A stretch of DNA of 31,861 nt from an uncultured Gammaproteobacteria bacterium. GTDB taxonomy: Bacteria > Patescibacteriota > Patescibacteriia > UBA2169. Positions 26,973 through 30,108 of the stretch are shown in pieces. Under the pieces are notes generated by a model. That model was not told where the DNA came from. It did not search any database and saw only the letters and a list, made by a program, of their open reading frames with translations. The stretch lies in contig CAYIMZ010000001.1 in NCBI GenBank assembly GCA_964364695.1, positions 1 to 31,861 on the forward strand, in the 5' to 3' direction. Numbering within the stretch: position 1 is the first letter of the stretch; each line of letters starts with the position of its first letter. The position numbers and the translations under genes are program-made.

Positions 26973-28403
26973 TCACTGATTTTCTCCAAGAATTTCTCCC
27001 TCCCCGTACGTGACAATCAGGTCAAGCGGGTCTCCCAAGGGGTGCAAGTCAACCACGGCCTGCGGAACCGGAACCACGTCATCCCAGTTGAACCCGAGCT
27101 TTTCAAACGCTTCTCCGGAAATCACGGGCCGCCGCAACCCGTCAGAGATCACATAGACCGCAGGCGATTCGGGCGAGGTGATGGTAGTGCCGTCAGTGAG
27201 CTTGAGCCTGCCGGCGTACGCGTACTTGTTAAGCTCGTCCGGGTGAACCGGGGAGGGTTTTACGTTTTTGAAGTTGTTCGCGAGGATTGAGCGGTGGATG
27301 ATGCCCTGCTTTTCGCCGTCCTGCACCCAGAACACGGCCCCTGTTTTTTTGTCTTGCAACAGGGCTCCGGTCGGGTATGCGGATGAGAGGGTGATGTTTT
27401 CGCCGATGGTGTACAGGGCAAGGTCTTCTTCGGAGACGTCAATAATCTCTTCGGGATTGAATCCGATGGTCCTGAACACTTCCCCCGACGCGATGCCGCG
27501 GATGGAATCGTCAGCAAGGAGATACACCGTGCCCCAGGGAGCCCGGAGCAGGGAGTAGTTGGCAAACTGGATGGCTGGCCCGATTTCGTACTTTTCAAGC
27601 TCATTTTTGGAAACAGGAATGATGCGGTCCGGATTGTAGCGGGAATACAGGGCAGTGCGCGTTTTGAACGGCCTGCGCTTTCCGTGCTGGAGGAGCCACA
27701 CCCCGGGTTCTCCCTCCTCCTGCAGGAGCGTGCCATCCGGGTAGTTGCGCGTAAAGTAGCGCTGCCAGATGCGCCAGAAGTTGAAGTTTGCGCCGATTCC
27801 CGCGTCGCTGCCTCGGTACGGATTGTACGTGTACAGCACTGCGGTGGCGTTGTTTGCTGGGGTGATTTCGTACCCGTCAAGCGTTGTCTTGGTTTTCGCG
27901 GGCCCCCATCCGGTAAGTGTCCTGCCGAGCGACGTTAAATCCCGCAGGTAGTTCACGCGCACCTTTTCCGCGAACAAAGAAACTTGATTATAGAATCCAC
28001 GGAACGATTGGACGCTCGGGTCGCTCTTTGAGCAGGAATCGCAGATGCCGAATCCGGTTGCCCAGTCCAGCTGGTTCTGGGAGGGGCCCTGCGACGTGAT
28101 GAGGCTCTGCTCTTTCTGGAGCATTGCGAGAATCACCTTTGGGCTTACGCGGTAGGTCTGGGCTTCCTCAAAAATGATCTGGCTTGCCGGTTTGCGGACG
28201 CTGTTCACCACCTCCGTGAACCGGGCAAGGAAGCTTCCTTTCTGCTCCAAAAAGCGCTGGATGGCGTCCTGGGAAAGGGAGCTTGCGTCCTCCAGCTCAA
28301 CGTCTGAAATGATGAAATTCGGGTTAAACGATGCGGCCGCTGTTTGGTCAAGCGGCGCCAGAATCAAGGAAGCGAGGATGAGGATTGAGAGCATGTGTTT
28401 CAT
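26973..28403 (-). CDS. Secreted protein with a putative lysozyme-like muralytic domain and four C-terminal CPR-type repeats
   Basis: Signal peptide MKHMLSILILASLILAPLDQTAAA; FNPNFIISD...SPKVILAMLQKEQSLIT...TGFGICD...GFYNQV...NNATAVLYTYNP; repeats such as YPDGTLLQ...VWLLQHGKRRPF. Confidence 0.7.
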   Translation of the reverse strand: MKHMLSILILASLILAPLDQTAAASFNPNFIISDVELEDASSLSQDAIQRFLEQKGSFLARFTEVVNSVRKPASQIIFEEAQTYRVSPKVILAMLQKEQSLITSQGPSQNQLDWATGFGICDSCSKSDPSVQSFRGFYNQVSLFAEKVRVNYLRDLTSLGRTLTGWGPAKTKTTLDGYEITPANNATAVLYTYNPYRGSDAGIGANFNFWRIWQRYFTRNYPDGTLLQEEGEPGVWLLQHGKRRPFKTRTALYSRYNPDRIIPVSKNELEKYEIGPAIQFANYSLLRAPWGTVYLLADDSIRGIASGEVFRTIGFNPEEIIDVSEEDLALYTIGENITLSSAYPTGALLQDKKTGAVFWVQDGEKQGIIHRSILANNFKNVKPSPVHPDELNKYAYAGRLKLTDGTTITSPESPAVYVISDGLRRPVISGEAFEKLGFNWDDVVPVPQAVVDLHPLGDPLDLIVTYGEGEILGENQ

Positions 28404-28421
28404 ATGAGGATTGTAGCACAA

Positions 28422-28462
28422 AGTTCCCCCTCCTGTAATCAGGAGGGGGATAAGGGGGTGGT
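28422..28462. repeat. G/C-run palindrome copy C, intergenic
   Basis: Reverse complement ACCACCCCCTTA-TCCCCCTCCTG-ATTA-CAGGAGGGGGA-ACT, the same architecture as copy B in priA. Confidence 0.8.
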
Positions 28463-28472
28463 CGTTATGAAT

Positions 28473-28510
28473 AAAAAAAGCGGGCCCTCCAGATGTTCCT
28501 GGGGGGCCCG
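28473..28510 (-). terminator. Intrinsic terminator closing the candidate ncRNA
   Basis: Minus strand CGGGCCCCCCAG-GAACAT-CTGGAGGGCCCG-CTTTTTTT. Confidence 0.75.
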
Positions 28511-28823
28511 TGCCGCACTTGCCGTTTCGCTCGGCGCTACTTAGGCAGGAGTGATGCTACCTCGCTGGCGGCCTCTTGCCGGCGGAGCTAGCTTCCAGCC
28601 GGGGTCAGCTCGGTGTAGTGGTCGCGCTTGTCTAAAACTGCAACGCTACTGCAGATTGTCTACGCGAGCGCGCGCGTGCTGGCTAAGCGGCCAGCCCGTC
28701 AATCTTTCCGCAATCTCGCCAATTCCCTCAAATCAGGGAGCCCATATCCGGGCGGTGATTGGCTGCGGCCGCACTATCGCCGGGCAGTTGCGGCGACAGT
28801 GGTGAGCGAAAGGACTATGTAAT
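28473..28823 (-). ncRNA. Candidate ~350 nt structured non-coding RNA of unknown family
   Basis: Upstream TTGACT (28859-54)/18 nt/TAGTGT (28835-30); at least eight hairpins; ends in a GC hairpin plus U7; no credible ORF on this strand. Confidence 0.6.
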
Positions 28824-28896
28824 GGCTTAACACTAACAAAAATATACCCAAACAGTCAACTGGCAGGGGGTGTGGAAAAGTGATACACTACACCCC

Positions 28897-30108
28897 ATGA
28901 ACTCGGTGAACATACTTGGTGTTGAGGTCTCGGACGTAAGCGAGTCTTTCGCGCTCTCGCGGGTAAAAAGTTTTCTGGAAAGCCCGCACCAGCACTACAT
29001 TGTAACCCCAAATCCGGAAATCGTGCTCAAAGCCGTAAAAGACGGGGGGTTGCGCCGCATCTTAAACCACGCAGACATCTCGCTTCCGGACGGGTTCGGG
29101 CTCAAAATCGCGAGCCGCATCCTCGGCCAGAAACTGCACCATCGCATCACGGGCGCGGATTTTATGCTCGCGATCCTGGAACTTGCAGAGAGCGAGGAGT
29201 GGCCCGTTTTTCTGCTCGGCGGCTTGAACGAAAAAGTTTCAGAGCAGGCTGCCTGGCATGTGCGGTACAAGTACAAGAAGCTCAAAATCGTTGGCCAGGC
29301 ATCGGGCGGCGTGGTAGAATTCAGGCAGGCCAGGTGGCAGACGAGCGACAGCAAACTCATTGACCGCATCAACCAGTCCCGCGCCAAGATTTTGTTCGTG
29401 GGGTTCGGGTGCCCCAAGCAGGAGAAGTGGATTTTCCAAAACTTGGACAAGCTGCCGAATATTAAGCTTGCACAGACCTGCGGCGGAACCCTGGACTTCT
29501 TGGCGGGCGAGCGAAAACGCGCGCTATACGCAATCCGCAGGCTGGGACTTGAGTGGCTCTGGCGCCTCATCATTGAGCCGTCCCGATTCAAACGCATCTG
29601 GAACGCGACTGCGGTATTCGTGTGGAGAGCGCTCATGTGGAGCATAGCCATGCGCTTCGTATACCGCCCCAATGTGGCGGCCGCAATCCTGAACCAGGAC
29701 AGCAAGTTCCTGCTGATCAAGCGGTCCGACACTTCTGAAGAACACTGGCAGTTCCCGCAGGGCGGGGTAGATCCCGGGGAAACTCCGGAGGAGGCAGTCT
29801 TGCGGGAGGTGCGCGAAGAGACCGGCATTGCCAACAAGATAACCATTCTTGGCAAGCACCCGCTACAGCACGCGTACCGCTACCCGAGCGCGTGGCACCG
29901 GTATGCTCATGGGTTCAAAGGCCAGAAGCAGACTATCTTTTATCTCCGCTTTGCGGGAGATGACCGCGACATAACCCTGGAAGCGCACGAAGCGGAGGAG
30001 TACGCATGGGTAGCGCCGGAGGATGTGGTTGCGACCGTGTTTCATCGCAGGCAGCCAATGGCCCGTATGGTGATTGAAGGCCTTTCGCAATATGTCAAAA
30101 CCGAATAA
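28897..30108 (+). CDS. WecB/TagA/CpsF glycosyltransferase fused to a C-terminal Nudix (RppH-like) hydrolase
   Basis: IVTPNPE, LPDGFG, RITGADF, FVGFGCPKQEKWI, GGTLDF...RA...GLEWLWRL; then WQFPQGGVDPGETPEEAVLREVREETG (Nudix box); start at ATG 28897, 7 nt after TGa-TACACT. Confidence 0.9.
   Translation: MNSVNILGVEVSDVSESFALSRVKSFLESPHQHYIVTPNPEIVLKAVKDGGLRRILNHADISLPDGFGLKIASRILGQKLHHRITGADFMLAILELAESEEWPVFLLGGLNEKVSEQAAWHVRYKYKKLKIVGQASGGVVEFRQARWQTSDSKLIDRINQSRAKILFVGFGCPKQEKWIFQNLDKLPNIKLAQTCGGTLDFLAGERKRALYAIRRLGLEWLWRLIIEPSRFKRIWNATAVFVWRALMWSIAMRFVYRPNVAAAILNQDSKFLLIKRSDTSEEHWQFPQGGVDPGETPEEAVLREVREETGIANKITILGKHPLQHAYRYPSAWHRYAHGFKGQKQTIFYLRFAGDDRDITLEAHEAEEYAWVAPEDVVATVFHRRQPMARMVIEGLSQYVKTE

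What the first reader, a model, noticed from the sequence alone, without database searches (positions are those of the whole stretch)
28473..28823. Unassigned ~350 nt highly structured RNA gene with its own promoter and terminator
Seen on the minus strand: promoter TTGACT-18-TAGTGT; an 11 bp hairpin CACTGTCGCCG/CGGCGATAGTG; a multibranch CCGCA-GCCAAT...ATTGGC-GAGAT-TGCGG enclosing two hairpins; hairpins GCTGGC/GCCAGC, ACGCG/CGCGT, CTGCA/TGCAG, GAGCT/AGCTC and GCCG-AGCGAAA-CGGC; then a terminator. The 5' TTTCGCTC is complementary to GAGCGAAA in the last hairpin loop (possible long-range pseudoknot or switch). I could not match it to RNase P, tmRNA, SRP, 6S, T-box or an intron. Inference: a novel large ncRNA, or an attenuator upstream of the muralytic-priA-def-fmt operon.
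Basis: partly seen in the sequence, partly recalled or inferred. Interest (0 to 1): 0.72.

Follow-up and report, generated by a model that had tools for sequence, protein, structure and literature searches.

The report
Genus-specific structured leader RNA, ORF-less copy
This is a real but very narrowly distributed structured RNA element of a groundwater Parcubacteria genus: in sister species it is the folded leader of a tiny protein gene, and in this genome the tiny gene is missing, so it is a modest curiosity and not a new major RNA.

Summary
No Rfam family matches, here or in the two homologous units. It is not RNase P, tmRNA, SRP or 6S RNA: 30 of 30 relatives carry RNase P RNA at other loci, and the closest congener G001 (98% complete) lacks the unit.

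Only the 5' half is conserved: H1-H5, 28638-28801, with an invariant core at 28677-28701. Homologues were found in 3 of 14 genomes of the order, all in one genus (G000, G002, G004). A covariance model built from G002+G004 alone finds the window copy (32.7 bits, E 2e-8), and H4 and H5 keep pairing through compensatory changes.

In G002 and G004 this domain is the 5' UTR of a 43-49 aa orphan ORF whose Shine-Dalgarno sequence and AUG are buried in helices. A third ORF homologue exists in a MAG.

The window copy lacks that initiation region and ORF. Its 3' half is not homologous and folds no better than shuffles (z +1.27). The proposed long-range 5'/3' pairing is at chance level.

Best reading: an ORF-less derivative of a leader-plus-small-ORF cassette. 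A free-standing ncRNA is the main rival. No expression data exist.

The parts
28854..28859 (-). -35 box TTGACT of the RNA unit
   Evidence: Read. The TTGAC part is invariant in G000, G002, G003 and G004 in alignment A1.
28830..28838 (-). Extended -10 (TG-n-TAGTGT). It is weaker than TGATAGAAT (G002) and TGATACAAT (G004). The inferred TSS is near 28823.
   Evidence: Not flagged by the consensus scan. The TSS is inferred from spacing only.
28772..28801 (-). H1, an 11-bp hairpin that follows a conserved UCGC..ACCA motif
   Evidence: Folds. A hairpin sits at the same place in G002 and G004, but I chose the register, so the covariation counts there are soft.
28708..28768 (-). H2 multibranch: outer stem CCGCA/UGCGG and inner stem GCCAAU/AUUGGC, enclosing two hairpins
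   Evidence: The inner stem H2b has 2 compensatory, 1 one-sided and 3 invariant pairs across 3 genomes. The AGGAG-containing internal loop of G002/G004 is absent here.
28677..28707 (-). Conserved core: junction (A)UGACGG plus hairpin H3 (GCUGGC-6 nt-GCCAGC)
   Evidence: 25 of 28 consecutive columns are invariant in 3 genomes (A4). The exact pattern is at 28677-28701. Four-fold codon sites of the flanking genes are only 0.50-0.57 identical.
28662..28677 (-). H4 hairpin ACGCG/CGCGU
   Evidence: Formed in the model-based alignment. Compensatory C-G/U-A and G-C/U-A.
28638..28654 (-). H5 hairpin CUGCA/UGCAG
   Evidence: Formed. Two pairs are changed on both sides in G000 relative to G002/G004.
28536..28637 (-). 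Non-conserved spacer that occupies the place of the translation initiation region and small ORF of G002/G004
   Evidence: No minus-strand ORF of 20 aa or more. No similarity to the ORF regions above shuffles. z +1.27. A strain-level variable patch lies at 28618-28630.
28512..28535 (-). 3' stem-loop (GCCG...CGGC), a reduced form of the stem-loop kept in G002, G003 and G004
   Evidence: Alignment A1. The inner hairpin GGCAG/CUGCC of the congeners is missing here. Read by eye.
28473..28510 (-). Intrinsic terminator: GC-rich hairpin with one C/A mismatch, followed by U7
   Evidence: Folds. Conserved in G002, G003 and G004; its 3' half remains in G001. Not flagged by the simple scan.

Best explanation
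The region is one promoter-to-terminator transcription unit on the minus strand. It lies between the divergently transcribed WecG/TagA-NUDIX gene and a 476-aa secreted protein gene that has its own promoter. Its conserved part is a roughly 165-nt multi-helix domain (H1-H5) with an invariant core, (A)UGACGG plus the GCUGGC/GCCAGC hairpin.

In the congeners G002 and G004 this domain is the long 5' UTR of a 43-49 aa basic, His/Lys-rich orphan ORF. That ORF's Shine-Dalgarno sequence (AAGGAGGA) and AUG are buried in a local hairpin and in a helix that pairs GUGGAYY with codons 6-8. The complete cassette therefore looks like a translation-control leader whose default state is 'off'. An upstream AGGAG-containing internal loop in H2 could compete for the anti-SD strand; this step is inferred, and the trigger is unknown.

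The window's copy keeps H1-H5 and the terminator. It has lost the AGGAG loop, the initiation region, the ORF and the inner 3' hairpin, and its -10 box is weaker. It is most likely an ORF-less derivative of that cassette, transcribed if at all as a non-coding RNA of about 350 nt. Its remaining function, if any, resides in the H2-H5 core.

Shown: homology, helices, presence or absence of the ORF, and distribution. Inferred: transcription, translational control, and loss of function.
For: - Synteny and homology. Alignment A1 and the BLAST coordinates place homologous units in G002 and G004 between the same two genes.
- Independent model test. Model R1, built from G002+G004 only, finds window 28611-28706(-) at 32.7 bits, E 2e-8. 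H3, H4 and H5 are formed; the initiation-region helix is broken or deleted.
- Covariation. On A7, 98.5% of cells are paired and 4 pairs are changed on both sides, against 0-1 in the slid controls; 9 of 500 shuffles reach this. In the manual table, the anchored helices H2b, H4 and H5 hold 7 compensatory, 3 one-sided, 8 invariant and 0 broken pairs. G-U pairs favour the minus strand.
- Constraint on the core. 25 of 28 core columns are invariant, while four-fold sites of the flanking genes are 0.50-0.57 identical.
- The small ORF. G002 and G004 have an SD and AUG followed by ORFs of 49 and 43 codons, with in-frame indels. A third homologue, P0005 (51 aa), was found among 1.84 billion representatives.
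- No ORF in the window. There is no minus-strand ORF of 20 aa or more in the body and no tblastn match to P0005.
- Decay in the genus. The unit is cleanly deleted in G001 and reduced to promoter, 3' stem-loop and terminator in G003.
Against: - No expression data exist for any copy.
- Only 3 RNA homologues are known, so the covariation statistics are weak, and A7 was fitted to the model.
- The coding signature of the small ORF is weak. Differences by codon position are 14/11/17, with 4 synonymous against 20 non-synonymous codon differences. Its conserved 5' end could therefore reflect RNA pairing rather than coding.
- The window's 3' segment shows no detectable homology to the ORF. 'Derived by loss' is inferred from the distribution, not seen as a pseudogene.
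- The strict conservation of the H3 core in the ORF-less copy fits a function independent of the ORF, which is the rival reading.
- No ligand or protein partner is known.
Confidence: 0.5

Rival explanations
1. A free-standing ncRNA, protein-binding or trans-acting, whose functional unit is the H2-H5 core. On this reading the small ORF in G002/G004 is an add-on (a dual-function RNA) or is not translated, and the window's copy is a fully functional RNA-only form.
For: - The only part conserved in all three genomes is the RNA domain, and the H3 core is invariant in the ORF-less copy too.
- G000-specific compensatory changes keep H4 and H5 paired.
- The small ORF evolves fast with a weak coding signature.
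- The unit has its own promoter and terminator in every copy.
Against: - The unit is dispensable: it is deleted in G001 (98% complete) and gutted in G003.
- A perfect SD at 5-6 nt from the AUG, and an ORF kept open in 3 diverged sequences with in-frame indels, argue for translation.
- G000 has a weaker -10 box and has lost other conserved features, namely the H2 internal loop and the 3' inner hairpin.
- No target or partner is known.
Confidence: 0.25
2. A transcription attenuator or leader of the downstream operon (476-aa protein, priA, def, fmt), as the first reader proposed as an alternative.
For: It lies upstream of the operon on the same strand and ends in a terminator that could in principle be read through.
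Against: - The downstream gene has its own extended -10 promoter (TGnTACAAT) 6-7 nt before its ATG in all 7 syntenic loci inspected, including G001, G005, G008 and G010, which lack the unit.
- A dispersed REP-like palindrome lies between the terminator and that promoter.
- No anti-terminator alternative was found, and the 5'/3' pairing is at chance level.
Confidence: 0.05
3. Chance folding of GC-rich intergenic DNA, with no functional RNA at all.
For: - The genome is 52-65% GC in this part of the window.
- The opposite strand folds equally well.
- The 3' half folds no better than shuffles.
- No RNA run holds the stretch, which is not evidence either way.
Against: - The independent model hit at E 2e-8.
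- Compensatory changes with no broken pairs in the anchored helices.
- 25 of 28 invariant core columns against about 50% identity at four-fold sites.
- The conserved promoter and terminator framing.
Confidence: 0.08
4. A highly divergent housekeeping RNA (RNase P, tmRNA, SRP or 6S), since the Rfam models find none of these anywhere in this assembly.
For: The own genome gave no RF00010, RF00169 or RF00013 hit, and only tRNA-sized RF00023 hits. The size, about 350 nt, resembles RNase P RNA or tmRNA.
Against: - RNase P RNA was found in 30 of 30 relatives at other loci than the unit: G002:C33 against C10, G004:C6 against C24, G003:C15 against C31.
- The unit is absent from G001 (98% complete) and from 11 of 14 genomes of the order.
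- ARAGORN finds no tmRNA in the window.
- The assembly is only 86.6% complete in 126 contigs, which explains the missing RNAs.
Confidence: 0.01

Closest known systems
Translational riboswitches and other structured 5' leaders with an SD-sequestering expression platform (a general class; orphan candidates come from comparative genomics)
   Same: In G002 and G004 there is a long multi-helix 5' UTR with a highly conserved junction and hairpin core, followed by helices that bury the SD and AUG of the very next ORF. An upstream SD-like AGGAG could act as an anti-anti-SD; this is inferred.
   Different: No Rfam family matches at E up to 5-10. No ligand or partner is known. Only 3 representatives exist, in one genus. 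The regulated gene is a 43-51 aa orphan ORF. The window's copy has no ORF to regulate.
Dual-function sRNAs that also encode a small protein (SgrS/SgrT, RNAIII/delta-haemolysin, SR1/SR1P; recalled from general knowledge, not from a call)
   Same: A single promoter-to-terminator unit that combines a structured RNA with a small ORF. The RNA part is better conserved than the peptide.
   Different: No base-pairing target, seed region or chaperone link was found. The ORF lies 3' of the whole structured domain. The function is unknown.
Type I toxin mRNAs (hok, tisB, zorO type; recalled from general knowledge)
   Same: Long, highly folded 5' UTRs that mask the SD of a small ORF of fewer than 60 aa. 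Patchy, strain-variable distribution with frequent decay.
   Different: The peptide is hydrophilic and basic, with no hydrophobic helix. No antisense RNA gene was identified; a specific search for one was not done.
RNase P RNA, bacterial type A (RF00010)
   Same: Similar length and multi-helix appearance. A GGAAAG...ACGGGCU stretch looks superficially like the P4 region; the likeness is recalled, not tested.
   Different: No model match. The true RNase P RNA genes of the congeners lie elsewhere. The unit is dispensable.

Membership tests
RNase P RNA (RF00010) | Match to the covariance model at or above its gathering score | tested here: not met
   No hit in the window at gathering or at E up to 10. 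None anywhere in G000.
RNase P RNA (RF00010) | It is the genome's single essential copy, so homologous loci in relatives should be their RNase P genes | tested here: not met
   30 of 30 relatives have RF00010 hits. In G002, G003 and G004 these lie on other contigs than the unit. The unit is absent in G001.
tmRNA (RF00023) | tRNA-like domain with a tag reading frame | tested here: not met
   ARAGORN finds only 3 tRNAs in the window. The RF00023 hits in G000 are tRNA-sized, 14-31 bits, below the 47-bit cut-off, and none lies in the window.
SRP RNA (RF00169) and 6S RNA (RF00013) | Match to the covariance model | tested here: not met
   No hit in G000 or in the region at E up to 10.
Any Rfam 15 family (riboswitches, T-box, ribozymes, introns, r-protein leaders) | Model match for the window copy or its homologues | tested here: not met
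   Searches (window; G002 unit; G004 unit) gave only chance-level hits (E of 1.6 or more, 12-16 bits) to eukaryotic miRNA/lncRNA/snoRNA models and a few short bacterial or viral ones, all far below their gathering scores.
Cis-regulatory translational leader (riboswitch-like) | Sits in the 5' UTR directly upstream of the regulated ORF | tested here: not met
   Met in G002 and G004. Not met in the window: there is no ORF of 20 aa or more and no SD/AUG after H5.
Cis-regulatory translational leader (riboswitch-like) | Expression platform that sequesters the SD and start codon | tested here: inconclusive
   Predicted helices cover the SD and AUG in G002 and G004, but with only 2 sequences there is little covariation: 1 broken cell, and the single both-sides change in helix 4 of A7 comes from the window row, where that helix is not formed. 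The platform is absent in the window copy.
Cis-regulatory translational leader (riboswitch-like) | Binds a ligand or protein that changes the fold | not testable with these tools
   Needs in-line probing, SHAPE or reporter assays.
Conserved structured RNA motif (generic) | Helices supported by compensatory changes in independent lineages | tested here: met
   There are only 3 sequences from one genus, so this meets a descriptive standard and not an R-scape-level one.
Intrinsic terminator | GC-rich hairpin followed directly by a U-run | tested here: met
   Hairpin 28481-28510 plus U7 at 28473-28479 in the folds, conserved in 4 genomes. The strict scanner missed it because of a stem mismatch.
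Type I toxin-antitoxin | Small hydrophobic toxin peptide and an antisense RNA | tested here: not met
   The peptides P0001, P0002 and P0005 are basic and hydrophilic by inspection. An antisense RNA was not searched for.

The most novel reading that the evidence does not exclude
H1-H5 is the aptamer-like sensor of a new riboregulator class in Patescibacteria. It controls a previously unknown small basic protein in cis, and the window's ORF-less copy shows that it can also work as a stand-alone RNA.
Probability: 0.15. Interest if true: 0.55.

Novelty: new member of a known kind. Interest (0 to 1): 0.28.

Why it matters
Almost no regulatory RNAs have been described for Patescibacteria. Two literature searches listed no paper whose title or abstract concerned this element or a comparable regulatory RNA. 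I opened only one paper, PMC11665869, as passages via find; it mentions riboswitches only as a possible engineering tool.

A conserved folded leader in front of an orphan small protein, with natural ORF-less, truncated and deleted variants inside one genus, gives a ready-made comparative series. That series could be used to ask whether the RNA or the peptide is the functional part.

Its reach is small, however. There are three RNA copies in one genus, the unit is dispensable, and there are no expression data.

Tried and rejected
Searches for homologues
- BLASTN of the unit against 60 relatives gave matches in 12 of 61 genomes. Apart from G000, only G002, G003 and G004 matched at the syntenic unit.
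  - 6 matches were a 24-nt stretch of 23S rRNA.
  - 3 were the REP-like palindrome (G001, G008, G010).
  - 1 lay in a coding region (G060).
- Core pattern with up to 2 mismatches in 401 class genomes: 4 genomes matched, of which G071 and G231 are chance. G071's match lies inside coding-looking sequence by eye; G231's match was not inspected and was judged from its two mismatches. The reversed-pattern control gave 5 hits.
- Exact pattern scan of genome contigs: 7 hits. Two are the G002 and G004 records. The other 5 show no similarity beyond the motif; by eye some look like hairpins after stop codons or coding sequence.
- Exact pattern scan of metagenome contigs: 8 hits, none homologous.
- Model R1 over the order: 3 of 14 genomes.

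Searches on the small ORF
- Pfam and NCBIfam on the small ORFs: nothing.
- The search for homologous proteins with P0002: found only itself.
- ESM Atlas with P0002: best score 0.86, recognition below threshold, so no usable lead.

Expression and alignment
- Expression: no RNA holder was listed among the 8 runs. The contigs laid show presence and strain variants only.
- MAFFT alignments A2 and A3 are out of register in H2, so I did not build a model of H1-H2. The counts for H1 and H2 rest on a register I chose and are soft.

Ideas rejected
- That the window's 3' segment is a recognisable pseudogene of the small ORF: alignment scores were at or below the shuffle mean.
- That the 23S-like 24-mer means rRNA mimicry: it is not conserved in the G002/G004 units and its E-value is about 0.005 per genome.

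- Supplements of papers were not consulted.

Full report
OBSERVATION

- TTGACT, an 18-nt spacer and TAGTGT with an upstream TG.
- An 11-bp hairpin (H1).
- A multibranch (H2) enclosing two hairpins.
- Three further hairpins (H3, H4, H5).
- Two weaker hairpins, then a GC-rich hairpin followed by seven U.

RNAfold reproduces them.

The region is the 493-nt spacer between two divergent genes. One is a WecG/TagA-NUDIX fusion (Pfam); its true start is the ATG at 28897, judged from its orthologues. The other is a 476-aa protein with a signal-peptide-like N-terminus. The 'muralytic' label for that protein could not be confirmed: it has no Pfam, NCBIfam or PDB match.

Folding energy is only partly above chance:

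| Segment | z-score | Shuffles folding as well |
|---|---|---|
| Whole unit, minus strand | -3.28 | 0 of 100 |
| Whole unit, plus strand | -3.36 | 1 of 100 |
| 5' half (28643-28822) | -2.0 | 7 of 200 |
| 3' half (28512-28642) | +1.27 | 187 of 200 |

The proposed UUUCGCUC/GAGCGAAA long-range pairing is matched or beaten by 79 of 200 shuffles. No better 5'/3' pairing exists in the homologues: 35 of 200 shuffles for G002 and 81 of 200 for G004.

NOT A KNOWN RNA

Rfam 15 gives only three tRNAs in the window at gathering thresholds. In the region at E up to 10 it gives only chance-level hits (E 3-8, 12-16 bits), mostly to eukaryotic miRNA/lncRNA models. The homologous units of G002 and G004 are equally blank. 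ARAGORN finds no tmRNA.

The own assembly has 733 kb in 126 contigs and is 86.6% complete. It has no RNase P, SRP or 6S hit, and only tRNA-sized tmRNA-model hits. That made a divergent housekeeping RNA worth testing.

The idea fails. RF00010 finds RNase P RNA in 30 of 30 relatives. In the congeners it lies on other contigs than the unit's homologue. The unit is also missing altogether from G001, which is 98% complete. The housekeeping RNAs are most likely just unassembled.

HOMOLOGUES AND DISTRIBUTION

BLASTN against 60 relatives matched 12 of 61 genomes. Besides G000, only G002, G003 and G004 matched at the syntenic locus. The rest were a 24-nt 23S rRNA look-alike (6 genomes), a dispersed palindrome (3 genomes) or coding sequence (1 genome).

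The 25-nt core pattern occurs exactly only in G000, G002 and G004:
- Among 401 class genomes with up to 2 mismatches, two further matches are at the level of the reversed-pattern control.
- Among all species representatives, 7 exact hits include 2 true ones.
- Among JGI metagenome contigs, 8 hits include none that is homologous.

The covariance model R1 finds 3 of the 14 genomes of the order, all in the same genus. The record title of the G002 contig names a Parcubacteria-group groundwater MAG.

ANATOMY ACROSS THE GENUS

Alignment A1 and the upstream regions of the 476-aa gene's orthologues show a graded series:

| Genome | State of the unit |
|---|---|
| G002, G004 | Complete: TTGACT and an extended -10 (TGATAGAAT / TGATACAAT); a 5' UTR of more than 200 nt with H1-H5; AAGGAGGA 5-6 nt before the AUG; an ORF of 49 or 43 codons; a 3' stem-loop; the terminator |
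| G000 (window) | Has the promoter (weaker -10), H1-H5, a reduced 3' stem-loop and the terminator. About 100 nt of unrelated sequence replaces the initiation region and ORF |
| G003 | Keeps only the promoter, 3' stem-loop and terminator (about 90 nt) |
| G001 | Deleted from the -35 box to the terminator loop, leaving the terminator's 3' half. This is the closest relative by the flanking protein (88% identity) |
| G005 | A tiny remnant |
| G008, G010 | The slot holds unrelated small-ORF units |

For the window copy, there is no minus-strand ORF of 20 aa or more in the body, and the replacement segment has no similarity to the ORF regions above shuffles.

In all seven loci the 476-aa gene keeps its own TGnTACAAT box 6-7 nt before its ATG. 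This argues against the unit being that gene's attenuator.

IS THE STRUCTURE REAL?

- A model built only from G002 and G004 (A5, structure given by me) finds the window copy at 28611-28706(-) with 32.7 bits and E 2e-8. H3, H4 and H5 are formed; the initiation-region helix is not.
- On the model-fitted alignment A7, 98.5% of cells pair and 4 pairs change on both sides, against 0-1 in the slid controls. Nine of 500 shuffles reach this. Two of the four compensatory pairs are G000-specific changes in H5.
- My manual helix table gives, for the sequence-anchored helices H2b, H4 and H5, 7 compensatory, 3 one-sided, 8 invariant and 0 broken pairs. H1 and H2 also look compensatory, but I chose their register.
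- Several G-U pairs would be A-C on the other strand, which favours the minus strand.
- The core (junction plus H3) has 25 of 28 invariant columns. Four-fold degenerate sites of the flanking genes are only 0.50-0.57 identical between G000 and G002/G004. The G004 WecG comparison was dropped because the locus held only 30 aligned residues.

With three sequences from one genus this is good descriptive support, not statistical proof.

THE SMALL ORF

G002 and G004 differ at 14/11/17 sites by codon position, with 4 synonymous against 20 non-synonymous codon differences. Their indels are in frame. That is a weak coding signature.

A profile search of 1.84 billion representatives found a third member. 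P0005 (51 aa) shares the N-terminal MK.IHP...SRGHPH block and the Lys-rich middle. By their accession prefixes it comes from the same MAG as a copy identical to G004's ORF. It matches nothing in G000, G001 or G003.

No Pfam or NCBIfam family matches, there are no other homologues, and the protein atlas gave no usable lead. SD-led genes do occur in this window, so translation is plausible.

MECHANISM

For the complete cassette I infer translational masking:
- The SD lies in a GUCCUC-AAG-GAGGAC hairpin.
- The AUG lies inside a UCUU/AAGA pairing.
- GUGGAYY pairs with codons 6-8.
- An AGGAG-containing internal loop in H2, present in G002/G004 and absent in G000, could compete for the anti-SD strand.

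The trigger (ligand, protein or temperature) is unknown.

For the window copy, the loss of the AGGAG loop, initiation region, ORF and inner 3' hairpin, together with the weaker -10 box and the deletions in G001 and G003, points to a cassette that is decaying in this genus.

The strict conservation of the H3 core in the ORF-less copy keeps the free-standing-ncRNA rival alive at about one in four.

COMPARISON AND NOVELTY

It works most like a structured translational leader. It also resembles dual-function sRNAs and type I toxin mRNAs in layout, but the peptide is hydrophilic and no antisense partner is known.

It belongs to no described family. As a thing, it is a new, tiny, genus-restricted member of a known kind. 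Two literature searches listed no paper whose title or abstract concerned it, and one paper read by passages added nothing.

VERDICT

Interest is modest.

Noticed in passing
window 28426-28449; 17 other loci in G000: A perfect palindrome, CCCCTCCT-N6-AGGAGGGG, lies between the terminator and the next promoter. It is a dispersed REP-like element: 18 loci in the 733-kb assembly against 0 for the reversed control. Many metagenome contigs match only this piece, with loose ends on both sides.
   Followed up: partly
window 28401-28439 (-) and 28874-28899 (+): Both flanking genes have an extended -10 box (TGCTACAAT; TGATACACT) ending 6-7 nt before their ATG, with no SD. They therefore look like leaderless mRNAs. 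The same arrangement is kept in all 7 syntenic loci for the 476-aa gene.
   Followed up: partly
window 28522-28545 (-): A 24-nt stretch is 92-96% identical to the 5' domain of 23S rRNA in 6 relatives (E about 0.0005-0.009 per genome). It is not conserved in the G002/G004 units, so it is probably chance.
   Followed up: partly
window 28564 and 28618-28630: Groundwater runs X6 and X8 hold a strain variant with 6 substitutions plus a 5-nt insertion packed into 13 nt of the non-conserved segment, and one further substitution. The rest of 28422-29000 is identical.
   Followed up: no
G000 whole assembly: The Rfam models find no RNase P RNA, SRP RNA, 6S RNA or true tmRNA. RNase P RNA is found in 30 of 30 relatives, so these genes are probably on unassembled parts of the genome (86.6% complete, 126 contigs).
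   Followed up: partly
L065 (G008) and L067 (G010), up to 700 nt upstream of the 476-aa gene's orthologue: In other genera of the family the same slot holds unrelated promoter-to-terminator units with their own small ORFs (11 codons ending in RRRR; about 58 codons with several Cys). The slot may be a hot spot for small lineage-specific genes.
   Followed up: no
L012 (G002) about 1365-1400 and about 1760-1790; L010 (G003) 1393-1542: The 5' end (UCGCACCAC...GCGCCGC) and the 3' stem-loop region of the unit share a direct repeat. Recombination between the two copies could explain the short G003 form that lacks the body.
   Followed up: no
window 26976-28403 (-): The 476-aa secreted-looking protein is conserved across the family (69-88% identity), and each of the five genomes searched also holds a second, 35-39%-identical match. 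It has no Pfam, NCBIfam or PDB sequence match, so the 'muralytic' label is unverified.
   Followed up: partly
proteins P0004 and P0005 (accessions with the same locus-tag prefix): One Parcubacteria MAG carries two different small-ORF homologues on two short contigs. They are either paralogous cassettes or two strains binned together.
   Followed up: no
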